Below, one piece after another: positions 2,840 through 55,144 of a stretch of DNA of 64,000 nucleotides. This stretch comes from an uncultured Candidatus Saccharibacteria bacterium. GTDB taxonomy: Bacteria; Patescibacteriota; Minisyncoccia; Phycocordibacterales; UBA1550. The stretch lies in NCBI GenBank assembly GCA_964642305.1, contig CAZXOE010000002.1, positions 50,300 to 114,299 on the forward strand. Reading direction: 5' to 3'. Below the pieces are notes generated by a model. It made no database searches. It was not told the DNA's origin and was given only the letters and a program-made list of their open reading frames with translations. The first letter of the stretch is position 1; every line of letters starts with the position of its first letter. Both the position numbers and the translations under genes were made by a program.

Positions 2840-2900
2840 GCCCCGCAAAGTGTAACCTATCCGAGGTCAGGACTTCGGATAGGTTACACTTTGCGGGGCA
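2840..2900. repeat. 62-bp perfect hairpin (25-bp stem) in a divergent promoter region
   Basis: gccccgcaaagtgtaacctatccga / tcggataggttacactttgcggggc with a ~10-nt loop, about 27 bp upstream of the DsbA-like start. Confidence 0.5.
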
Positions 2901-2948
2901 TGCCAGAAGCTCGCGCACAAGCTGGTTTTCGGGTAGAATGATGAAATA

Positions 2949-3073
2949 TGAATCCCGTTAGAGGTCGCACAGTTTTTGTAGAATGGTGAGAAACGACTAT
3001 ACTGATAGGTGATACATTATTAATGAATACTAATTAACTACGGAAATTTTTAATAATTTCCTACCTCTAACGG
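2949..3073 (+). mobile_element. MITE-like mini-element copy 1 (TIR CCCGTTAGAGGT...ACCTCTAACGGG), ORF-less
   Basis: 12-bp terminal inverted repeats at 2954-2965 and 3063-3074. 9-bp direct repeats GATGAAATA at 2940-2948 and 3074-3082. The right end abuts the pgi ATG. The ends are homologous to the copies at 20241 and 40210. Confidence 0.5.
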
Positions 3074-3074
3074 G

Positions 3075-4379
3075 ATGAAATACCAGGGACACATAAAAGA
3101 AGGAGAGCATATCACTGTGGACAATGCTCGCGTGGAGGAGTATGTCGCAAAAATGCGTCTTGCAATGAGCGACAAAGCTTATTCAACCCCAGAAGCATCT
3201 CTGAGGTTGCCCTTTGACGAGGAGCTTCTAAAAAAATCAAAAAACCTCGCAAGCAAACTCGCGGGGCCAAAGCTCACGTATATTTTAGATATTGGCATCG
3301 GGGGGTCAAACCTCGGCGCAAGGGCGCTCTATGAAGCAACCGCTGGAACTATGGACGCACACACGCCATTTGCGCCAAAAATGCTTTTTGCGGACACATG
3401 CTCACCGGAGCTTCTTTCAGATATCACGGAGCTTCTCTTGAATGAAATAGGTGACAAAGAAGAAATTATAATTATTGTCGCAAGTAAGTCTGGCACAACG
3501 ACAGAAACAATCACAAATGCATCTGTGCTTGTCAGCGCGCTTGAACAAAAATTCGGATCACTCACGGATCGCATTGTGTGCATTACGGATGAGAAGTCGC
3601 CACTTTGGATTATGGCGGAAGATCAAAAATTCCATTTGCTTCCAGTTCCAAAAAATGTAGGTGGACGTTTTTCTGTTTTCTCGCCAGCCGGAGTGTTTCC
3701 GCTTCTGTGTGCTGGTATCCCTGGAGATGCGCTTATGCGTGGAGCGCAGTCCGTTATTCACGACGCTATTGAGAGAGGAGTAGAAAGTAATTCTTTTAAA
3801 TTCGCAAAAGATATTATTTCATGGCACGAACAAGGTAGAATCGTGTTTGATTTTTTTGCGTTTCACCCAGAGCTTGAGTCTCTTGGAAAATGGTATCGTC
3901 AACTTTTTGCGGAAAGTACAGGGAAAGAAAAAACAATTGACGGCGCGCCTACAACGCACCGCATGGTGCCAACTGTATCCATAGGTTCCACCGACCTCCA
4001 TTCTGTTGAACAAATGAACCTTGCGCAACAGAATATCTCAGCGCGTTTTCTTGTTCGCGCGCATGCTCCGCACTGGGAGCACCAGTTTTTGGCAGAGGAT
4101 AAAGTGTTTGCCCCACTCGTGCCAGGTGTTTCTAGGCGCGCTCCATGTGAAATTCTTGATGCCATTTATAAAGGGGTCACTGAAACATACAAGGAACGAG
4201 GAGTTTCATATGGTGAGATTTTGCTAACTGATCTTGATCCAGAGTCGCTTGGAGCGCTTATGCAGTTTATGATGTGTACCACGATGCATCTTGCAAAACT
4301 GCTTAATATCAATGCATTTGACCAGCCAAACGTAGAGGCATACAAGGAGGCTACGAGGAGGATTTTGAGCGGGAAATAA
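3075..4379 (+). CDS. pgi: glucose-6-phosphate isomerase
   Basis: DIGIGGSNLG motif (the PGI GIGGS signature). 434 aa, PGI-like throughout. Confidence 0.75.
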   Translation: MKYQGHIKEGEHITVDNARVEEYVAKMRLAMSDKAYSTPEASLRLPFDEELLKKSKNLASKLAGPKLTYILDIGIGGSNLGARALYEATAGTMDAHTPFAPKMLFADTCSPELLSDITELLLNEIGDKEEIIIIVASKSGTTTETITNASVLVSALEQKFGSLTDRIVCITDEKSPLWIMAEDQKFHLLPVPKNVGGRFSVFSPAGVFPLLCAGIPGDALMRGAQSVIHDAIERGVESNSFKFAKDIISWHEQGRIVFDFFAFHPELESLGKWYRQLFAESTGKEKTIDGAPTTHRMVPTVSIGSTDLHSVEQMNLAQQNISARFLVRAHAPHWEHQFLAEDKVFAPLVPGVSRRAPCEILDAIYKGVTETYKERGVSYGEILLTDLDPESLGALMQFMMCTTMHLAKLLNINAFDQPNVEAYKEATRRILSGK

Positions 4380-20211: not shown

Positions 20212-20240
20212 TTTTACGCAGTCGTGGTATGCTCATTTTT

Positions 20241-20522
20241 ATGAATCCCGTTAGAGACCCCTCAGTTATGTATTACACCTATGTTATCGAGAACGATAAA
20301 GGTACATGGTATACTGGAAGTACGGGAGACCTACGGAAACGCTTTAGAGAGCACAACGAAGGGCAGGCCAACATGGACAAAAGGTAAAGGTTTGTGGAAG
20401 GTTATTTATTACGAAGCATGTCTTAATGAGCAAGATGCTCGGTCGAGAGGGATGTATTTAAAATCAAGAATGGGTAAGCGCTATCTAAAAAGTAGACTAA
20501 AGCGTTTCCTGTCTCTAATGGG
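20241..20522 (+). mobile_element. TIR mini-element copy 2 carrying a GIY-YIG nuclease ORF (TIR CCCGTTAGAGAC...GTCTCTAATGGG)
   Basis: Left end ATGAATCCCGTTAGAG is identical to the first 16 nt of copy 1. Right TIR at 20511-20522 abuts the argS ATG at 20523. Confidence 0.55.
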
Positions 20523-20526
20523 ATGA
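20268..20526 (+). pseudogene. GIY-YIG nuclease (YhbQ/UPF0213-like), interrupted by a +1 frameshift
   Basis: Frame 0 gives MYYTYVIENDKGTWYTGSTGDLRKRFREHNEGQ, the GIY-YIG core. Frame +1 continues TKGKGLWKVIYYEA...YLKSR. A 1-nt shift lies near 20370. The ORF track splits it into 20199..20387 and 20281..20526. Confidence 0.55.
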
Positions 20527-22241
20527 AAGAGAAACTAGAATCAATAGTTGCAGAGGCGCTCAAAGCGCTTGGAATTGAAACTGCGACTGTTACAATAGAA
20601 CGCCCCGCCGACATGGCGCACGGCGACTATTCCACCAACGCGGCTCTGGTTTACGGAAAGAAAGCAGGCATTCCACCGCGCGAGTTTGCGGAGAAACTAT
20701 TAGAAAAAATACGAGATGCATCACCATATGACATAGCAAAAATTGAAATCGCCGGCGCTGGGTTCGTCAATTTTTTCATGACCGCTGACGCGATAAGGGA
20801 AGAAAATAAAAAAGAAAAATGCTCTCTCGTCACTAGGTATTCAAAAAAGAATATTCTTGTGGAGCATTCTTCCCCAAATATCTTTAAACCGTTTCATATC
20901 GGGCATTTAATGAACAACATTGTTGGTGAGTTTGTCACAAGGGCAACAATAATAGGTGGCGGAAATGTCACGACTATATCTTTTCCATCAGATGTTTCCC
21001 TCGGGATTGCAAAAGCGGTGTTTGTCCTTCTTGAGGACAAAAAAGAAGGCAGAGATGTATTTGCGCTTTCAGATGAAGAAAAAATAACCGCATTTGGCGA
21101 AGCATACCGAAGGGGTGTGGAGTATTTTGACACGCGCCCCGATGAGAATGAAAAGGCAAAAGAGATAGCGCGCATCATTTATGACAAAGACCATTCATCA
21201 GAAACTCGCGCGTTTTTTGAACGCGCAAAAGAAATCAACACCGCATATCTTATAAAAATAATAAAGGAGCTTGGTTCTGTTATAGACGAGATAATTTATG
21301 AATCTGAGGCAGGTGAAATAGGGCAAGAGATTGTAGAGAAAAACACGGGCGAGGGAAAAGTGTTTGCAAAAAGTGAAGGCGCAGTGGTGTATGTCCCTGA
21401 TCCCGCGCGCAAGGATTTGCACACGCAGGTCTTTATCAACAGCGAGGGGCATCCGACATATGAAGCAAAAGATCTCGGCCTCATTGATTTGAAGTTCTCA
21501 AAATTTGCGCCCGATATTTCGTATTTTGTCACCGACACGGAGCAGGCATCGCATTTTAGGGTTGTGCTCGATGCCGCAGGGAAGCTTGGTGGTGTGTGGC
21601 CGTCGCGCGTAGAAAAAAGCATTCACATCCCGCATGGAAGAATGCTTTTCAAGGGGCAAAAAATGTCGAGCCGTCTTGGGGGTGTGCCGATCGCTCTTGA
21701 TGTTGTTGCAGTGGTGGAGGAAGAAGTAAGAGAGAGAGCAGGGGAGAAAATTGCGCACCTCGGTGCTCTAGAGAAAATGAAGCTGGAGCGTGAGATTGCG
21801 CTTTCTTCCCTCCGTGTGGCGGTCCTTCGTTCAAAGCCAGGTATTAATATTAATTTTGACCCCGAAACATCACTCTCGTTTGAAGGGGACTCAGGTCCGT
21901 ATCTTTTGTATACACACGCACGAACCGCGTCGCTTCTTGAAAAAGGGAAAGAAAAAGGATATGAGCCAACGTTTGCATCTGTGCCAGTAACACTTTTAGA
22001 AAGAGAGCTAGCGCAGTATGAGTTTGTTTTAGGGCAGGCGGTCACCGATCTTCATCCACAAAAATTAGTGACGTATCTTTTTGAAGTAGCGCAACTATTT
22101 AATGGTTTTTATGGAAGTACGCAAATCATCACAGAAGATAAAGAAACATCCGAGCATTACCTCGCCATAGTAAAGCGGCTCAAAGCAGTCCTCAAGGAAG
22201 GCCTCTGGGTGCTCGGCATTTCCGCACCGGAGAAGATGTAG
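20523..22241 (+). CDS. argS: arginyl-tRNA synthetase
   Basis: HIGH motif FHIGHLMN. Class-I ArgRS-like over 572 aa. Confidence 0.9.
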   Translation: MKEKLESIVAEALKALGIETATVTIERPADMAHGDYSTNAALVYGKKAGIPPREFAEKLLEKIRDASPYDIAKIEIAGAGFVNFFMTADAIREENKKEKCSLVTRYSKKNILVEHSSPNIFKPFHIGHLMNNIVGEFVTRATIIGGGNVTTISFPSDVSLGIAKAVFVLLEDKKEGRDVFALSDEEKITAFGEAYRRGVEYFDTRPDENEKAKEIARIIYDKDHSSETRAFFERAKEINTAYLIKIIKELGSVIDEIIYESEAGEIGQEIVEKNTGEGKVFAKSEGAVVYVPDPARKDLHTQVFINSEGHPTYEAKDLGLIDLKFSKFAPDISYFVTDTEQASHFRVVLDAAGKLGGVWPSRVEKSIHIPHGRMLFKGQKMSSRLGGVPIALDVVAVVEEEVRERAGEKIAHLGALEKMKLEREIALSSLRVAVLRSKPGININFDPETSLSFEGDSGPYLLYTHARTASLLEKGKEKGYEPTFASVPVTLLERELAQYEFVLGQAVTDLHPQKLVTYLFEVAQLFNGFYGSTQIITEDKETSEHYLAIVKRLKAVLKEGLWVLGISAPEKM

Positions 22242-22269: not shown

Positions 22270-23005
22270 AAAGGGGTCAGGTACCTTTGATTTGTGATAT
22301 AGTCTTAGTATATAATACAAACATGCCACGACTACCACGCGTTGATGTTGGAGGAGAAATTTATCACGTCATTAATCGTGCAAATGCACGGTTGCCAATT
22401 TTTTTTAAAGAAGACGACTATAAACTTTTTGAGACAATTATTGAGGAAGCGCAGATTAAATTTGGTATGAGGATTCTCGCGTATTGTTTTATGCCAAATC
22501 ATTTTCATCTTGTATTACATCCAAACAGTGACGGTGATTTGCAGAAGTTTATGCAATGGCTCACGCTTACTCATACTCAACGCTGGCACACAAAAAATGG
22601 AACGACAGGAACTGGACATCTATATCAAGGACGATACAAGTCTTTTCTTGTCCAAGGCGACAGGCACTTACTTACTATTATTCGCTATGTAGAGAGAAAT
22701 CCACTGCGGGCAAAATTGGTCAAGAAAATTGAAAACTGGAATTTCTCAAGCCTCGCTAGGCGACTTTCTGGCAATCCTAAAAAGAATAAATTACTTGAAA
22801 AGTGGCCGATTGAAATGCCAAAGAATTATCTAGCCTTTGTGAACGAACCTATGAATAAAAATGAAGAAGATGTAATCAGGTACTCTGTTAATAGAAGCAA
22901 GCCTTTTGGATCGGACACATGGAGCAGTAGAATGATCGATAAGCACGGGCTAGAGGCGACGATGCGCAACAGGGGAAGACAAATCAAAGGTACCTGACCC
23001 CTTTG
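22270..23005 (+). mobile_element. IS200-like/RAYT unit bounded by 20-bp inverted repeats (AAAGGGGTCAGGTACCTTTG / CAAAGGTACCTGACCCCTTTG)
   Basis: The IRs at 22270-22289 and 22985-23005 are perfect reverse complements. The right IR overlaps the stop codon. Confidence 0.55.
22323..22997 (+). CDS. IS200/IS605-family Y1 (HUH) transposase, REP-associated tyrosine transposase-like
   Basis: HUH motif MPNHFHLVL and a catalytic Tyr region RYVERNPLRA. The TATATAATACAAAC promoter is fused to the ATG. Confidence 0.7.
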   Translation: MPRLPRVDVGGEIYHVINRANARLPIFFKEDDYKLFETIIEEAQIKFGMRILAYCFMPNHFHLVLHPNSDGDLQKFMQWLTLTHTQRWHTKNGTTGTGHLYQGRYKSFLVQGDRHLLTIIRYVERNPLRAKLVKKIENWNFSSLARRLSGNPKKNKLLEKWPIEMPKNYLAFVNEPMNKNEEDVIRYSVNRSKPFGSDTWSSRMIDKHGLEATMRNRGRQIKGT

Positions 23006-29116: not shown

Positions 29117-29185
29117 GGCGTTTCCTATTCTGTCTGTCCTATTACCTATTTACATCTATAGATGTAAATAGGTAATAGGACAGGA
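29117..29185. repeat. palindrome containing CCTATTTACATCTATAGATGTAAATAGG
   Basis: Imperfect ~69-bp palindrome whose 28-bp core recurs at 29779-29808. Confidence 0.6.
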
Positions 29186-29199
29186 AACGCTGGAAGTCT

Positions 29200-29763
29200 T
29201 TAAAGATTAAAATATTTTCGTACCCGAGACTCGTTTTCTATATCGCTAGCAGTAATAAGAAAAATATGTTCTCTCACATTAAAACAATCCCCTAAAAAAT
29301 CAACTTCTTTTTTGCATTCGAACGGTGTTATGAAAACAGATTTTTGGTATGGGTAGCAATTTGCTTTTTTTAACAGTTTATTTAATGCTTGCCTTGAGAA
29401 CTTCTTTTCTTCTGGTATATCAAACATTATTATTCGCCATTTTTTGTCCCACTTTTCGTGTTTATCAGACCTGTCTAATTTTAGATTATTTAGTCGAGCT
29501 TCTTTCCTGCCTTTGTCAGTAAGCGCAACATAAATCTCACCTCCACGATTCTCCATTTTTATTAAACCTTTATTTTTTAAACTTCCTGCTGAGCGTCTTA
29601 TTTTTAGTTTTATTTTCCCATCTTCAATATCAATATATTTGAGCAACTGCGCCAGGTTTGGAAGCGCGAGAATCATAACAAAAGCCCCAGTCGTTAGCAG
29701 AGAGGTTAGGATAATTTTTGAAATCTCACCTTTATCGTATTTTTGTGTATGGCTATTATTCAC
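29200..29763 (-). CDS. PaaX-like protein (winged-helix N-terminus, Cas2-fold C-terminal domain), N-terminal TM
   Basis: KWDKKWRIIMFDIPEEKK...QKSVFITP matches the PaaX C-domain / Cas2-like fold pattern (W.G.W..V.FDIPE....R.....L...G....SV). No cas genes or array nearby. Confidence 0.4.
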   Translation of the reverse strand: MNNSHTQKYDKGEISKIILTSLLTTGAFVMILALPNLAQLLKYIDIEDGKIKLKIRRSAGSLKNKGLIKMENRGGEIYVALTDKGRKEARLNNLKLDRSDKHEKWDKKWRIIMFDIPEEKKFSRQALNKLLKKANCYPYQKSVFITPFECKKEVDFLGDCFNVREHIFLITASDIENESRVRKYFNL

Positions 29764-29778
29764 TGTTAAAAGTATACC

Positions 29779-29808
29779 TATTTACATCTATAGATGTAAA
29801 TAGGTATA
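29779..29808. repeat. 28-bp perfect palindrome CCTATTTACATCTATAGATGTAAATAGG (second copy)
   Basis: Identical core to 29140-29170. The pair brackets the PaaX-like gene. Confidence 0.6.
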
Positions 29809-40188: not shown

Positions 40189-40209
40189 ATTGCAGTCGTG
40201 GTTACTTGT

Positions 40210-40327
40210 CCCGTTAGAGATAACTCAGTTATGTTTTCGGCGATAATGGGATATACTGAGATTACTATTATTAGAAGTTAAATATAATTAAGATAAGGAA
40301 ATTTAATAATTTCCTATCGCTAACGGG
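40210..40327 (+). mobile_element. TIR mini-element copy 3 (CCCGTTAGAGATA...TATCGCTAACGGG), ORF-less deletion derivative
   Basis: Left end shares cccgttagaga..ctcagttatg with copy 2. Right end shares ggaaatttaataatttcctaNNNctaacggg with copy 1. It abuts the metG ATG. Confidence 0.5.
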
Positions 40328-41896
40328 ATGACAGAAAAAAAATTCTACATCACTACGCCTATTTTTTACGCGAATGCGGAGCTCCATTTAGGGCACACAT
40401 ATACGCTTGTTTTGTCAGACGTTTTAGCGCGATATCATCGCTTTGTAGGAGACAATACTTTTTTCCTAACAGGCTCCGATGAGCATGGCGACAAAATTGT
40501 GCGTTCTGCGCAAAAGGAAGGCATGGGGCCTCAGGCGTTTGTAAATATAAATGTCGCAAAAATGGAGGTGCTTATTCAGGAGCTTGGTATATCAAATGAT
40601 CTATTTATTCGCACCTCCGATCAAGAGCATCATTGGTCAGGAGCAAAGAAGCTGTGGCACGCGCTTGAGGAAGCTGGTGATATTTACAGGGGCACATACA
40701 AAGGGCTTTACTGTGTTGGGTGCGAGGCATTCATTACCGAAAAAGAATTAGTGAGTGGCAAATGTCCTTTGCATGACGCTCCACCAGAGCATATTGAAGA
40801 AGAAAATTATTTTTTCAAACTTTCAAAATATGGCCCTGAAATAAAACGATTACTTGAAAGTGGAGAATTAAAAATTACTCCCCATTCACGAGTAAATGAA
40901 ATAGTTTCACTCATCTCTGGTGCGAACGGAGAGAGTGCTTTGGTAGATGTGAGTATCTCTCGCCCAGAGCGCGCGATACCGTGGGGGATACCTGCGCCAA
41001 GTGACCCAACACAGCTAATGTATGTGTGGTGCGACGCGCTTTCAAACTACATTTCTGCTCTTGGCTACGGTACAGACAATGATGAAAATTTCAAAACTTT
41101 TTGGCCAGCGGATATTCAGGTGTTGGGCAAAGACATACTTCGTTTCCACGCGCTCCTTTGGCCAGCATTTTTATTGTCAGCGAAGATTCCGCTACCACGC
41201 GAGCTTTTGGTCCATGGGTTTGTCAATTCAGGAGGGAAGAAGATGTCTAAGTCCTTGGGTAACGTGTTGAGTCCGGGTGAATTTATTTCAGAGTATGGCA
41301 GGGACGCGCTTCGGTATTACCTTACGAGAGAGGTAACTCCCGTGGATGATTGGGATTTAACCCGAGAAAAATTTAAAGAAGTTTACAATGCAAACCTGGC
41401 AAATGGCTTGGGGAACCTTGTATCACGCACTTTAAAAATGGCTGAATCGTATTTTGGAGGAGTGGTAAAAGGTGACGCGACACGTGTACCTCCTATTAAA
41501 ACAAAAATGTCCGATGTGGAAACGTTTGATGAAATTGCAGGTATTAATATTCCATATATTATTACAAATGACATTTTGCCACGTTACCATAAACATATGA
41601 GCGCGAATGAGATAAATAGAGCAGCGGACGTAATTTGGGAGCTCATTGGGCATCTAGATCAATTTGTTACAGATTATGAGCCATTTAAGCTTGTGAAGAC
41701 AGACAAGGAGTCTGCGGAGGCTGTAATTTGGTGTCTTTTGTACGGACTTCGCGAGGTTGGCCAAATGCTTACGCCAATGATGCCAGATACAGCGCAAAGG
41801 ATTATAACGCTTGTTGGCGCATCCGATGTCAAGGCTGATGAAATGGTCTTTAATGCAAAAGCACTCACCGAACCGCTTTTTATGCGCAAAGAGTAG
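40328..41896 (+). CDS. metG: methionyl-tRNA synthetase
   Basis: HIGH motif (ELHLGHTY) and KMSKS. Confidence 0.9.
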   Translation: MTEKKFYITTPIFYANAELHLGHTYTLVLSDVLARYHRFVGDNTFFLTGSDEHGDKIVRSAQKEGMGPQAFVNINVAKMEVLIQELGISNDLFIRTSDQEHHWSGAKKLWHALEEAGDIYRGTYKGLYCVGCEAFITEKELVSGKCPLHDAPPEHIEEENYFFKLSKYGPEIKRLLESGELKITPHSRVNEIVSLISGANGESALVDVSISRPERAIPWGIPAPSDPTQLMYVWCDALSNYISALGYGTDNDENFKTFWPADIQVLGKDILRFHALLWPAFLLSAKIPLPRELLVHGFVNSGGKKMSKSLGNVLSPGEFISEYGRDALRYYLTREVTPVDDWDLTREKFKEVYNANLANGLGNLVSRTLKMAESYFGGVVKGDATRVPPIKTKMSDVETFDEIAGINIPYIITNDILPRYHKHMSANEINRAADVIWELIGHLDQFVTDYEPFKLVKTDKESAEAVIWCLLYGLREVGQMLTPMMPDTAQRIITLVGASDVKADEMVFNAKALTEPLFMRKE

Positions 41897-54375: not shown

Positions 54376-54411
54376 CCAAGCTCCCCAAGGCCCGGCCTAT
54401 GTACATAGGCC
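54376..54411. repeat. 36-bp perfect palindrome CCAAGGCCCGGCCTATGTACATAGGCCGGGCCTTGG (REP-like, left of RAYT #2)
   Basis: Read directly; identical to 55109-55144. Confidence 0.85.
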
Positions 54412-54434
54412 GGGCCTTGGTATATAATACAAGC

Positions 54435-55088
54435 ATGAGGAAGCTCAATTTTTCTATTCATGAATACTACCATCTCTACAGTCGTGGTACCGACAAACGT
54501 ATTATATTTAGCGATGAAGAAGACAAGCAAAGATTTTTACATCTCTTGTATCTCTGTAATACTGACAGCAGTCTAATATTTAGAGAGATACCCATAGGCC
54601 GGGCCTATGAAGAGAGAAAAGGAGATACTTTGGTTAATATTGGAGCATATTGCATGATGCCAAATCACTTCCACCTACTTGTTAGAGAGAAGAAGGATGG
54701 TGGAATCACGAAATTTATGGGTAAATTACTAACATCGTATTCAATGTACTTTAACAAGAAATATAAGCGTACTGGGACTTTGTTTGAGAGTAGATTTAAG
54801 GCAAAGCATGCTAATGATGATAAATACTTGAAGTATTTATTTGCTTATATTCATCTAAACCCAGTTAAGATTATTGATCCAAAATGGAAGGAAAATGGGA
54901 TTAAGGATCGAGATAGTGCTGAGGAATATCTAGAAAGTTATCAATATTCGAGTTACGCGGATTACGTAGGCGACCATCGTAAGGAGAGCAACATCCTTAA
55001 TAAGCGAGTGTTTCCAGAGTATTTTTCAAAGCAGCAGGAATTTAAAGAATTCATAAAAGAGTGGCTATCCTATGGCAATATAGTGTAG
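54435..55088 (+). CDS. IS200-like Y1 (HUH) transposase / REP-associated tyrosine transposase (RAYT)
   Basis: HUH motif MPNHFHLLV and a Tyr region YIHLNPVK. The TATATAATACAAGC promoter is fused to the ATG. The ORF track's upstream extension is discounted. Confidence 0.7.
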   Translation: MRKLNFSIHEYYHLYSRGTDKRIIFSDEEDKQRFLHLLYLCNTDSSLIFREIPIGRAYEERKGDTLVNIGAYCMMPNHFHLLVREKKDGGITKFMGKLLTSYSMYFNKKYKRTGTLFESRFKAKHANDDKYLKYLFAYIHLNPVKIIDPKWKENGIKDRDSAEEYLESYQYSSYADYVGDHRKESNILNKRVFPEYFSKQQEFKEFIKEWLSYGNIV

Positions 55089-55108
55089 CCCCGAGGACTA
55101 CCAAACCA

Positions 55109-55144
55109 CCAAGGCCCGGCCTATGTACATAGGCCGGGCCTTGG
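55109..55144. repeat. 36-bp perfect palindrome, identical second copy (right of RAYT #2)
   Basis: Read directly. Confidence 0.85.

What the first reader, a model, noticed from the sequence alone, without database searches (positions are those of the whole stretch)
2940..3082. ORF-less copy of the same element upstream of pgi, with 9-bp direct repeats that look like a target-site duplication of a leaderless start
CCCGTTAGAGGT (2954-2965) and ACCTCTAACGGG (3063-3074) are perfect reverse complements enclosing 98 bp; the element footprint is 2949-3073. GATGAAATA occurs at 2940-2948 and again at 3074-3082, where it contains the pgi ATG. Removing the element and one repeat gives ...ggtagaatgATGAAATACC, a -10 box only 3 nt from the ATG. 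That would be a typical leaderless gene whose promoter and start codon were split by the insertion. The element's right end carries its own TAATAAT box ~18 nt before the ATG, so it may now drive pgi.
Basis: seen in the sequence. Interest (0 to 1): 0.7.

Follow-up and report, generated by a model that had tools for sequence, protein, structure and literature searches.

The report
Miniature GIY-YIG hairpin transposon at pgi
The 123 bases in front of the pgi gene are a gutted copy of a tiny mobile element, common in ultra-small Patescibacteria, that lands on gene start codons and rebuilds the start codon as it inserts; this kind of element does not seem to have been described.

Summary
The insertion reading is right, but the boundaries and the duplication need correcting.

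**What it is.** Window 2953-3075 is an ORF-less, internally deleted copy of a 277-280 bp element. The full element has a 13-bp terminal inverted repeat (TCCCGTTAGAGnn) and one 85-95 aa single-domain GIY-YIG nuclease gene.

**Evidence for insertion.**
- Six related Yonathbacteria-group genomes have an empty pgi site: TAGAAT-like box, 6 nt, ATGAAATACC. Two others are filled at the same spot.
- The true target duplication is 4 bp (TGAA inside ATGAA), not the 9-mer.
- Among 98 elements, 61 have identical 4-nt flanks. These include non-TGAA flanks such as CTTA, TGGA, CCTG, CAGA, CTGG and TTAA, and two nested insertions.

**Placement.** About two thirds of copies sit exactly on a gene's start codon, co-oriented with the gene. 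The element's last base (A) plus the duplicated TG remakes the ATG. The old ATG and its leaderless-type promoter now head the element.

**Structure.** Two long-range helices covary strongly.

**Closest known relatives.** Ssn/NTS nuclease-hairpin systems and MITEs such as Correia elements.

**Not shown.** The mobility mechanism and the present route of pgi expression are inferred, not demonstrated.

The parts
2934..2939 (+). TAGAAT, the -10-like box of the original pgi promoter
   Evidence: TAGAAT is conserved in L008, L009, L010, L011, L014 and L015 (as CGTGTAGAAT). L012 and L013 carry a different -10-like box (TAAAAT, TATTAT). In all six empty sites the box lies 6 nt before the pgi ATG. In the window it lies 8 nt before ATG 2948.
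2940..2948 (+). This is host flank, not part of the element or its duplication.
   Evidence: L010 shares the same flank variant. Empty sites and L014 have AGGAGG here instead. Removing the element leaves a 7-nt tandem ATGAAAT-ATGAAAT, which is unexplained.
2948..2950 (+). Original pgi start codon. It now heads a 13-codon short ORF (MNPVRGRTVFVEW*) that runs into the element.
   Evidence: Comparison with empty sites; translation.
2949..2952 (+). Left copy of the 4-bp target-site duplication, TGAA
   Evidence: Identical 4-nt flanks occur in 61 of 98 elements at offset 0, against 0-3 at offsets of 1-2 nt either way. Empty sites have a single ATGAA.
2953..3075 (+). ORF-less, internally deleted copy of the GIY-YIG hairpin element (123 bp)
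   Evidence: It aligns end to end with copy 3, with the L006 copy before ftsW and with the L014 copy before pgi. It keeps the first ~100 nt and the last ~25 nt of the full element.
2953..2965 (+). Left arm of the terminal inverted repeat (helix H1), TCCCGTTAGAGGT
3042..3061 (+). Inner hairpin GGAAATT-TTTAAT-AATTTCC, the remnant of element helix H2.
   Evidence: Folds. It corresponds to CGGAAACGCTT...AAGCGTTTCC in full elements.
3063..3075 (+). Right arm of the terminal inverted repeat, ACCTCTAACGGGA. Its last base is the A of the pgi ATG.
3076..3079 (+). Right copy of the target-site duplication, TGAA. Its TG completes the regenerated pgi ATG.
3075..4379 (+). pgi (434 aa), the host gene whose start codon was targeted
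   Evidence: Pfam PF00342. Orthologues start with the same MKYQG.
20246..20523 (+). Copy 2: full-length element with a frameshifted GIY-YIG ORF. TGAA flanks lie at 20242-20245 and 20524-20527. Its last base is the A of the argS ATG.
   Evidence: one extra G at alignment A4 column 128, unique among 70 copies. The sequence is identical in three assemblies.
40209..40328 (+). Copy 3: ORF-less copy of the same subfamily. Its last base is the A of the metG ATG. It has no matching left flank.

Best explanation
**What it is.** Window 2953-3075 is a non-autonomous, internally deleted copy of a very small mobile element that is widespread in Patescibacteria.

The full element is 277-280 bp and has three parts:
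- a 13-bp terminal inverted repeat;
- a second conserved long-range helix (H2);
- a single gene for an 85-95 aa protein that is only a GIY-YIG nuclease domain (Ssn/UPF0213-like).

**How it lands.** Insertion duplicates 4 bp. The duplicated site is most often TGAA inside the ATGAA that opens a gene, and the element points the same way as the gene. The element ends in A and the duplication starts with TG, so the host ATG is rebuilt at the right end. The original ATG, with its promoter 6-8 nt upstream (leaderless geometry), now heads the element. In full copies the nuclease ORF also takes its stop codon (TGA) from the duplicated target, which gives an ATGA stop/start overlap with the host gene.

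**At pgi.** The element landed on the start codon of a leaderless-type pgi. The site is still empty in six related genomes.

**Inferred, not shown.**
- The nuclease recognises the hairpin made by the paired termini, probably in single-stranded DNA as Ssn nucleases do. It cuts at the foot of the hairpin and so moves ORF-less copies in trans.
- Full copies are expressed from the captured host start and pass ribosomes on to the host gene by termination-reinitiation.
- pgi is now transcribed with a 127-nt hairpin leader, or from a start inside the element.
For: **Insertion at pgi**
- Empty sites are present in L008, L009, L011, L012, L013 and L015. Filled sites are present in L014 and L010 at the same nucleotide.

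**Target duplication**
- 61 of 98 elements have identical 4-nt flanks only at offset 0.
- 15 non-TGAA pairs match, against 2.5 expected from shuffled pairing. One of the 15 is a terminator hairpin in the window that I later excluded, leaving 14.
- Two insertions are nested, with their own duplications CCTG and CTGA.

**Family size**
- 2706 protein clusters in the homologue search.
- More than 500 loci in JGI metagenomes.
- 2267 representatives at E <= 1e-10.
- GIY-YIG domain, Pfam E = 2.9e-12.

**Deletion derivative**
- Alignments.

**Paired structure**
- H1 plus H2 are 97.9% paired against 91.7% in shuffles.
- 118 double-change cells against 26.6 expected, with 0 of 500 shuffles reaching the observed values.
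- Slid-partner controls give 30-54% paired.
- An alternative local helix shows no covariation.

**Start-codon placement**
- 51 of 74 full copies (plus 4 at GTG) and 14 of 23 ORF-less copies have ATG at the right junction. For 47 of those 51 full copies and all 14 ORF-less copies the ATG opens a long ORF.
- All 74 full copies are co-oriented with the downstream direction.

**Borrowed translation signals**
- 62 of 74 full copies take their stop codon from the flank.
- 28 read in frame from the host ATG, and 17 have a short upstream ORF.

**Leaderless geometry**
- TAnnnT lies 5-8 nt upstream of the captured ATG in 18 of 48 flanks, about 4-fold over background.
- In the window, TGnTAnnnT lies 6-9 nt before the first ATG of 9 of 56 long ORFs and almost never at other spacings.

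**Mechanistic precedent**
- Ssn nucleases are 94-aa single-domain GIY-YIG enzymes that cut single-stranded DNA next to a hairpin repeat flanking their own gene (PMC11893778).
Against: - No intact nuclease gene lies in this window. Copy 2 carries a reproducible frameshift.
- 37 of 98 elements lack identical flanks, copy 3 among them.
- Nothing shows that a nuclease-only protein of about 90 aa can carry out excision and joining. Host repair functions would be needed.
- The known Ssn mechanism acts on single-stranded DNA and does not predict a 4-bp duplication.
- I could not test whether the protein belongs to the Ssn clade (cd10448). The nearest solved relatives are UPF0213 proteins and SLX1.
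- Preference for start codons and co-orientation could reflect selection on survivors rather than targeting. ORF-less copies have more varied flanks.
- The pgi leader has no Shine-Dalgarno sequence and its AUG sits at the foot of a stable stem. How pgi is expressed is unknown.
- The 7-nt tandem duplication in the left flank is unexplained.
Confidence: 0.72

Rival explanations
1. It is an ordinary inverted-repeat MITE moved by an unrelated transposase (for example a DDE enzyme) encoded elsewhere. The GIY-YIG gene would be only a passenger or selfish cargo.
For: A 13-bp terminal inverted repeat with a fixed-length 4-bp duplication is the classic signature of DDE cut-and-paste elements (established knowledge). 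ORF-less copies of 39-230 bp share little beyond the termini. No joining activity is known for GIY-YIG nucleases.
Against: The right repeat arm forms the last codons (SLTG) of the nuclease ORF in thousands of clusters across many Patescibacteria lineages. The repeat and the gene are therefore one long-lived unit. No transposase gene accompanies the 80 surveyed loci (not searched systematically). Repeat positions 10-13 differ between copies on the same contig yet stay complementary. A second internal helix covaries. Neither is expected from protein binding to two separate ends.
Confidence: 0.12
2. It is a domesticated hairpin repeat of the Ssn/NTS or REP type. The repeats would be binding and cutting sites for a host-serving single-strand nuclease (control of transformation, recombination or gene expression), and the copies would spread by recombination rather than transposition.
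For: The protein is the same size and type as SsnA, and the gene-between-repeats layout is the same. A canonical NTS sequence exists in one Patescibacteria locus (L034). REP-like palindromes bracketing Y1 transposase genes occur in this window.
Against: Variable 4-nt duplications abut the termini, insertions are nested, and empty orthologous sites are precise. These point to insertion events. The element termini do not match the SRM consensus (HGTCWY...) from the Ssn paper, judged by eye. Domestication and mobility are not mutually exclusive.
Confidence: 0.1
3. It is a free-standing GIY-YIG homing-endonuclease cassette that spreads by double-strand-break repair into a conserved site. The ORF-less copies would be its decayed remains.
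For: GIY-YIG is a classic homing-endonuclease fold. There is a weak match to the group I intron endonuclease model TIGR01453. The cassette is inserted between genes with overlapping stop/start codons, as phage seg and mob genes are (established knowledge).
Against: TIGR01453 scores 21 bits against a cut-off of 56, and only over the catalytic domain. There is no DNA-binding domain. The targets are many unrelated genes that share only (A)TGAA. Target duplications and inverted termini are not products of homing. No Rfam intron family matches.
Confidence: 0.03
4. It is a structured 5' leader (cis-regulatory RNA) that evolved in place to control pgi, argS and metG.
For: All three window copies end at a start codon. 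Covarying helices are typical of functional RNAs. Two of the three genes encode aminoacyl-tRNA synthetases.
Against: It is absent from the same site in six relatives whose promoter/start unit is otherwise conserved. It is present before dozens of unrelated genes. It carries a protein gene in its full form. There are flanking duplications and nested copies. No Rfam family matches, T-box included.
Confidence: 0.03

Closest known systems
Ssn nucleases with NTS/SRM hairpin repeats (Chenal et al. 2025, Nat Commun, PMC11893778)
   Same: Both have a single-domain GIY-YIG protein of about 94 aa whose gene lies between inverted, hairpin-forming repeats that also occur in many ORF-less copies around the genome. 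The repeat cores resemble each other (ATTCCCGCG against AATCCCGTT). The authors noted that the layout looks like an insertion sequence.
   Different: In Ssn systems each flank is a complete 20-50 nt hairpin. Here each flank is half of one hairpin, so the whole element is the loop. No target duplication, empty sites, start-codon placement or Patescibacteria members were reported for Ssn. The SRM consensus (HGTCWY...) is not met here. Membership of the protein in cd10448 was not tested.
MITEs of bacteria, especially Neisseria Correia elements
   Same: Both are short (about 100-150 bp) non-coding elements with terminal inverted repeats and a short target duplication. They sit just upstream of genes and are co-transcribed as hairpins that can alter expression. 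(From established knowledge: Correia elements duplicate TA, can carry promoters, and their RNA hairpins are cut by RNase III.)
   Different: The parent element here is only about 280 bp and encodes a GIY-YIG nuclease, not a DDE transposase. The duplication is 4 bp. Insertion is at the start codon itself and regenerates it.
IS200/IS605 elements and REP/RAYT systems
   Same: Both involve very small elements or genes tied to DNA hairpins. Both have strand- and orientation-specific insertion next to a short target motif, and both produce abundant ORF-less hairpin repeats. Two IS200-like Y1 genes bracketed by perfect inverted repeats lie in this same window.
   Different: Those systems use an HUH Y1 transposase, have subterminal hairpins rather than pairing between the two ends, and make no target duplication. 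Here the enzyme is GIY-YIG, the two termini pair with each other, and there is a 4-bp duplication.
Free-standing and intron-encoded GIY-YIG homing endonucleases (I-TevI, Seg, Mob)
   Same: They share the catalytic fold, a selfish-gene logic, and tight packing between host genes.
   Different: Those enzymes are about 250 aa, with a DNA-binding domain and one long homing site, and they spread by repair-mediated copying. None of these features is found here.

Membership tests
MITE / non-autonomous inverted-repeat transposon | Terminal inverted repeats | tested here: met
   13-bp perfect repeat at 2953-2965 and 3063-3075.
MITE / non-autonomous inverted-repeat transposon | Target-site duplication of fixed length abutting the termini | tested here: met
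   TGAA on both sides of the pgi copy. Family-wide, 61 of 98 elements match at offset 0 only, and 14 non-TGAA pairs match against 2.5 expected.
MITE / non-autonomous inverted-repeat transposon | No coding capacity, and derived from a longer coding element with the same ends | tested here: met
   The longest ORF inside is 28 codons or fewer. It aligns to the ends of the 277-280 bp GIY-YIG element.
MITE / non-autonomous inverted-repeat transposon | Presence/absence polymorphism at orthologous sites | tested here: met
   Six empty and two filled pgi sites in relatives.
MITE / non-autonomous inverted-repeat transposon | Mobilised in trans by the parent element's enzyme | not testable with these tools
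   Needs a transposition assay.
Ssn / NTS system (PMC11893778) | Single-domain GIY-YIG protein of about 94 aa | tested here: met
   Full copies encode 85-95 aa containing only PF01541.
Ssn / NTS system (PMC11893778) | Protein falls in the cd10448 clade | not testable with these tools
   No CDD library or SsnA sequence was available. The nearest solved chains are UPF0213 proteins BH0048 (1e-9) and EF2693, and SLX1.
Ssn / NTS system (PMC11893778) | Gene flanked by complete SRM hairpins matching HGTCWY...RNCYNB | tested here: not met
   Compared by eye, without a pattern scan. The flanks are the two halves of one inverted repeat and have no GTCWY motif. A canonical NTS was seen only in L034.
Ssn / NTS system (PMC11893778) | Site-specific cleavage of single-stranded DNA only | not testable with these tools
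   Biochemical.
IS200/IS605 and REP/RAYT | HUH Y1 transposase | tested here: not met
   The only ORF is GIY-YIG.
IS200/IS605 and REP/RAYT | No target duplication; subterminal hairpins | tested here: not met
   A 4-bp duplication is present, and the two ends pair with each other.
GIY-YIG homing endonuclease | Catalytic domain plus DNA-binding domain; match to TIGR01453 above cut-off | tested here: not met
   21 bits against a cut-off of 56, over the catalytic region only. The protein is about 90 aa.
GIY-YIG homing endonuclease | One long conserved homing site | tested here: not met
   The targets are unrelated genes that share only (A)TGAA.
Leaderless gene (pgi before insertion) | -10 box about 6-8 nt before the start codon, and no Shine-Dalgarno sequence at working distance | tested here: met
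   TAGAAT-like box + 6 nt + ATG in six empty sites, with a variable spacer. The same geometry is enriched genome-wide.
Leaderless gene (pgi before insertion) | Transcript 5' end at the A of the ATG | not testable with these tools
   Needs 5'-RACE or dRNA-seq.

The most novel reading that the evidence does not exclude
The 277-280 bp parent may be an autonomous transposon whose only protein is a nuclease of about 90 aa. That would make it by far the smallest autonomous DNA transposon known, and the first bacterial one driven by a GIY-YIG enzyme.

It would also be built to parasitise translation starts. It has no promoter and no stop codon of its own. It inserts into the ATGAA of (often leaderless) genes, borrows the host promoter and AUG, takes its stop from the duplicated target, and hands ribosomes back to the regenerated host AUG. 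The paired termini and helix H2 would be the substrate the nuclease reads in single-stranded DNA.
Probability: 0.45. Interest if true: 0.88.

Novelty: new variant of a known kind. Interest (0 to 1): 0.78.

Why it matters
- **A new route to mobility.** It would add a nuclease-only, hairpin-based way of moving DNA to the short list of bacterial transposition chemistries. It would also give the recently found Ssn-type nucleases a mobile-element origin that can be tested.
- **Survival in tiny genomes.** It shows how a selfish element can persist in 0.6-1 Mb genomes packed with essential genes: it lands where it does least harm and restores the start codon it splits.
- **Gene expression in Patescibacteria.** It flags leaderless transcription as common in this Patescibacteria genome and makes the point testable.
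- **Annotation.** Gene callers currently label these elements as 'GIY-YIG nuclease family protein' or even 'excinuclease ABC subunit C'. They also sometimes fuse the element to the downstream gene.
- **Tools.** A 13-bp hairpin paired with a nuclease of about 90 aa could be a compact addition to single-stranded-DNA tools.

Tried and rejected
- **Rfam.** No family reached threshold on the whole window at gathering scores. Lenient scans of the pgi copy and of a full copy gave only one chance-level snoRNA hit. T-box or other riboswitch leaders and group I/II introns are rejected.
- **Two-hexamer sigma-70 and terminator scans** around copies 1 and 3. This is uninformative, because these promoters lack a -35 element.
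- **Wobble bias, to choose between an RNA and a DNA structure.** About 30 G-U mismatches against 19 A-C, and 4 against 2 in a hand count of the termini. Not decisive.
- **Alternative local helix** (columns 240-249 with 268-276) suggested by the single-sequence fold of L006. It shows no covariation above shuffles and is rejected. It serves as a negative control for H2.
- **NCBIfam.** Only a sub-threshold match to the intron endonuclease model.
- **tblastn against plasmids** to reach Ssn homologues. Three weak hits, including B. subtilis YazA. This did not settle Ssn membership. The Ssn paper has no supplements held as text.
- **rRNA hosts.** I tested whether insertions away from start codons lie in rRNA genes, as reported for GIY-YIG ORFs in Patescibacteria rRNA insertions (PMC11270868). 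No rRNA was found in 20 loci.
- **Window search for ftsW/murG** to get further filled-versus-empty pairs. Those genes are absent from the window.
- **Literature.** Searches for a GIY-YIG transposase, for GIY-YIG with MITE, TIR or TSD, for leaderless transcription in Patescibacteria and for MITEs in Patescibacteria found nothing describing this element.
Full report
**1. The observation**

CCCGTTAGAGGT at 2954-2965 and ACCTCTAACGGG at 3063-3074 are exact reverse complements. GATGAAATA occurs at 2940-2948 and at 3074-3082.

The arms enclose 97 nt, not 98. The pairing extends one base outward (T2953 with A3075).

Exact CCCGTTAGA occurs four times in the 64-kb window, each time at an element end. 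One-mismatch hits elsewhere are at background level (12 found, 8.6 expected).

The segment folds much better than shuffled sequence. As RNA it gives -37 kcal/mol with z = -4.1. As single-stranded DNA it gives z = -4.3.

**2. Three copies, each ending on a start codon**

A repeat search found three copies.

| Copy | Coordinates | Content | Gene that starts at its last base |
|---|---|---|---|
| 1 | 2953-3075 | ORF-less | pgi |
| 2 | 20246-20523 | frameshifted GIY-YIG ORF | argS |
| 3 | 40209-40328 | ORF-less | metG |

Gene identities come from Pfam.

Copy 2 carries a GIY-YIG ORF (Pfam PF01541, E = 2.9e-12) broken by one extra G. That base is unique among 70 aligned copies. It is identical in three assemblies from different samples, so it is a real mutation.

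Copies 1 and 3 are homologous over their whole length. They keep the first ~100 nt and the last ~25 nt of the full element. They share a compensated inner hairpin, GGAAATT/AATTTCC, where full copies have GGAAACG...CGTTTCC. The ORF-less form therefore seems to have spread as such.

**3. It is an insertion: empty sites exist**

pgi orthologues were fetched from eight related genomes of Candidatus Yonathbacteria and neighbouring lineages.

| Locus | State | Sequence at the site |
|---|---|---|
| L008, L009, L011, L015 | empty | CGTGTAGAAT + 6 nt + ATGAAATACC |
| L012, L013 | empty | other -10-like box (TAAAAT, TATTAT) + 6 nt + ATGAAATAC |
| L014 | filled | TAGAAT-AGGAGG-ATGAA\|CCCCGTTAGAGG...CTCTAAAGTGA\|TGAAATACC |
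| L010 | filled | same position; unrelated interior; perfect 14-bp repeat CCCGTTAGAAGTTT/AAACTTCTAACGGG |

In the empty sites the 6-nt spacer differs (aggagg, agaggg, agatgg, agaact, aaagca). The box and its distance to the ATG are conserved.

The L014 interior is about 85% identical to window copy 1.

**4. Boundaries and the true duplication**

The reconstructed nuclease retrieves a large and tight family. There are 2706 clusters at 90% identity, with the consensus MNPVRD...RLKRFLSLTG. The names given by sources are all Patescibacteria lineages.

I collected 80 metagenome loci and scanned all held sequence for paired ends. This gave 98 distinct candidates. One, a terminator hairpin in the window, was later excluded. 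That leaves 74 full elements (274-329 bp) and 23 ORF-less ones (39-230 bp).

- **Termini.** The ends are Y-CCCGTTAGA-nnn and its complement. The outermost pair covaries (T/A 74, C/G 22, A/T 1).
- **Flanks.** The 4 nt outside the two ends are identical in 61 of 98 elements. If the right flank is shifted by 1 or 2 nt, only 0-3 match.
- **Flank sequences.** Most are TGAA. Fourteen genuine pairs have other sequences: TAAA (3), TGAG (2), and one each of TTAA, CTTA, TGGA, CCTG, CTGA, CAGA, CTGG, CGAG, TTTA. The expectation from shuffled pairing is 2.5.
- **Nested insertions.** Two elements sit inside other elements and have their own duplications (L089 CCTG, L049 CTGA).

The duplication is therefore 4 bp. 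It may be 5 bp, because the base before the left copy equals the element's last base in 8 of 13 non-TGAA cases that I checked by eye.

At pgi the duplication is TGAA at 2949-2952 and 3076-3079. Once the element and one TGAA are removed, the window reads TAGAAT-G-ATGAAAT-ATGAAAT-ACC. This is a 7-nt tandem duplication in the host flank, and L010 shares it. I cannot explain it. A footprint left by an earlier insertion and excision is one possibility.

**5. Where the elements sit**

- **Start codons.** 51 of 74 full copies have ATG at the right junction. The ATG is made from the element's terminal A and the TG of the duplication. In 47 of them the ATG opens a long ORF. Four more copies have GTG, in the variant whose terminal pair is C/G.
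- **ORF-less copies.** 14 of 23 have ATG at the junction, opening an ORF of at least 108 codons.
- **Orientation.** All full copies point the same way as the downstream gene. Every ORF-less copy at a gene start that I could orient is also co-oriented (hand reading).
- **Stop codon.** In 62 of 74 full copies the nuclease ORF takes its stop codon (TGA 55, TAA 6, TAG 1) from the flanking target, not from the element.
- **Start of translation.** In 28 copies the host ATG reads in frame into the nuclease ORF. In 17 it opens a short upstream ORF, usually six codons (MNPVRD*), a few bases before the internal ATG.
- **Promoters.** A TAnnnT box lies 5-8 nt upstream of the captured ATG in 18 of 48 distinct left flanks. 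That is about four times the density at other distances.

Within the window, the extended -10 motif TGnTAnnnT lies 6-9 nt before the first ATG of 9 of 56 long ORFs and almost nowhere else. Leaderless-type starts thus look common in this organism.

**6. A conserved paired structure**

I aligned 70 full copies. RNAalifold predicts two long-range helices:
- H1 joins the two termini (13 bp).
- H2 joins CGGAAACGCTTTAA (codons RKRF) to TTAAAGCGTTTCC (codons LKRF), which lies directly beside the right terminus.

Pair counting gives the following.

| Measure | Observed | Shuffled partners | Partners slid 1-3 columns |
|---|---|---|---|
| Cells forming a standard pair | 97.9% | 91.7% | 30-54% |
| Cells changed on both sides | 118 | 26.6 | 8-25 |

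None of 500 shuffles reached the observed values.

The changes in H2 fall largely at synonymous codon positions of two separate parts of the ORF. A competing local helix suggested by a single-sequence fold shows no covariation.

Within one contig, copies differ at repeat positions 10-13 and still pair. One copy has rewritten most of the repeat on both sides (L053, CCCGTATGAAAT/ATTTCATACGGG). Pairing itself is therefore under selection. This is not what protein binding to two separate ends would produce.

The data do not say whether the structure acts in single-stranded DNA, in a cruciform or in RNA. Mismatches are about 30 G-U against 19 A-C.

**7. Comparison with known systems**

The searchable literature has no description of this element.

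The closest system is the Ssn family (PMC11893778). Its members are 94-aa single-domain GIY-YIG enzymes that cut only single-stranded DNA next to a hairpin repeat (NTS/SRM). That repeat flanks their own gene and is scattered through the genome. The authors remarked that the layout looks like an insertion sequence. They reported no duplications, no empty sites and no Patescibacteria members.

Here each flank is half of one hairpin rather than a full hairpin, and the SRM consensus is not met. I could not test whether the protein belongs to the Ssn clade. The nearest solved proteins are UPF0213 members and SLX1.

In behaviour the ORF-less copy resembles Correia-type MITEs, which sit upstream of genes and are transcribed as hairpins.

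A survey of insertions in Patescibacteria rRNA genes noted GIY-YIG ORFs inside non-intron insertions (PMC11270868). Those may be the same element. None of 20 loci tested here held rRNA.

**8. How it most likely works**

*Shown:*
- insertion with a 4-bp duplication;
- regeneration of the host ATG;
- capture of the old ATG and its promoter;
- the borrowed stop codon;
- deletion derivatives;
- covarying helices.

*Inferred:*
- The nuclease reads the hairpin formed by the termini and cuts at its foot, and so moves ORF-less copies in trans.
- Full copies are translated from the captured start and return ribosomes to the host gene through the ATGA overlap.

*Unknown:*
- How pgi is expressed now. Its AUG follows a 127-nt leader that has no Shine-Dalgarno sequence and is closed by a 13-14 bp stem.
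- The short ORF from the old ATG stops at 2989, so simple stop/start coupling is lost in this copy. Some other ORF-less copies keep it (L091) or stay in frame with the host gene (L067).

**9. Verdict**

The element family appears to be an undescribed variant that combines features of Ssn-type nuclease/hairpin systems and MITEs.

Noticed in passing
window 22270-23004 and 54385-55144: Two IS200-like Y1 transposase ORFs (Pfam PF01797) are each bracketed by perfect inverted repeats or palindromes, of 26 nt and 37 nt. For the first ORF the repeats overlap its ends. This is the same 'gene inside a long hairpin' layout as the GIY-YIG element, and it looks like REP/RAYT.
   Followed up: partly
window 29143-29806: A 187-aa ORF with a PaaX/Cas2-like domain lies on the minus strand, bracketed by two copies of a 32-nt perfect palindrome, TACCTATTTACATCTATAGATGTAAATAGGTA.
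   Followed up: partly
window 2840-2899; L008 just upstream of pgi: A 29-bp hairpin lies between the divergent dsbA and pgi genes. L008 has a hairpin at the same place with a conserved core (GCAAAGTGT.AC.TATCC) but swapped outer ends (CCCC/GGGG against TTGGGG/CCCCAA). It is not a terminator by position. Its function is unknown.
   Followed up: no
L034 7016-7182: A Patescibacteria contig carries a canonical Neisseria-type NTS/SRM sequence, TGTCATTCCCGCGCAGGCGGGAATCC. A second copy has its two halves separated by about 90 nt. It lies about 3 kb from a GIY-YIG element.
   Followed up: partly
window, for example 17373, 18315, 29934, 36061, 37825, 39118, 43452, 61959: An extended -10 motif (TGnTAnnnT) lies 6-9 nt before the ATG of many long ORFs. 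This points to widespread leaderless transcription in this organism. Several of these genes start with ATGAA and are potential target sites.
   Followed up: partly
window 20218-20228 and 40192-40202: Copies 2 and 3 share the 11-mer GCAGTCGTGGT just upstream of the element and immediately after the preceding gene's stop codon. It is either a common promoter motif (TCGTGnTA...) or flank carried along with the element.
   Followed up: partly
L089 1291-1520, L049 7488-7657, L039 1000-1397, L091 3990-4389: Elements are nested inside elements, each with its own 4-bp duplication, and elements lie in direct tandem before a single gene. L089 holds four copies in 4.3 kb.
   Followed up: partly
L004 and L005 (Logan contigs), corresponding to window position 3050: Two independent short-read contigs both end exactly 25 nt upstream of the pgi ATG, inside the element. 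This is the expected assembly break if other copies with an identical right end exist in the community.
   Followed up: no
L014 3001-4238: The pgi ORF behind the degenerate element copy in L014 stops after 210 codons, although similarity continues. It is either a pseudogene or an assembly frameshift.
   Followed up: no
proteins P0125, P0129, P0136: Some database 'proteins' of 220-600 aa begin with the GIY-YIG domain. They are probably elements whose ORF lacks a flanking stop codon and is read through, or called as fused, into the downstream host gene.
   Followed up: no
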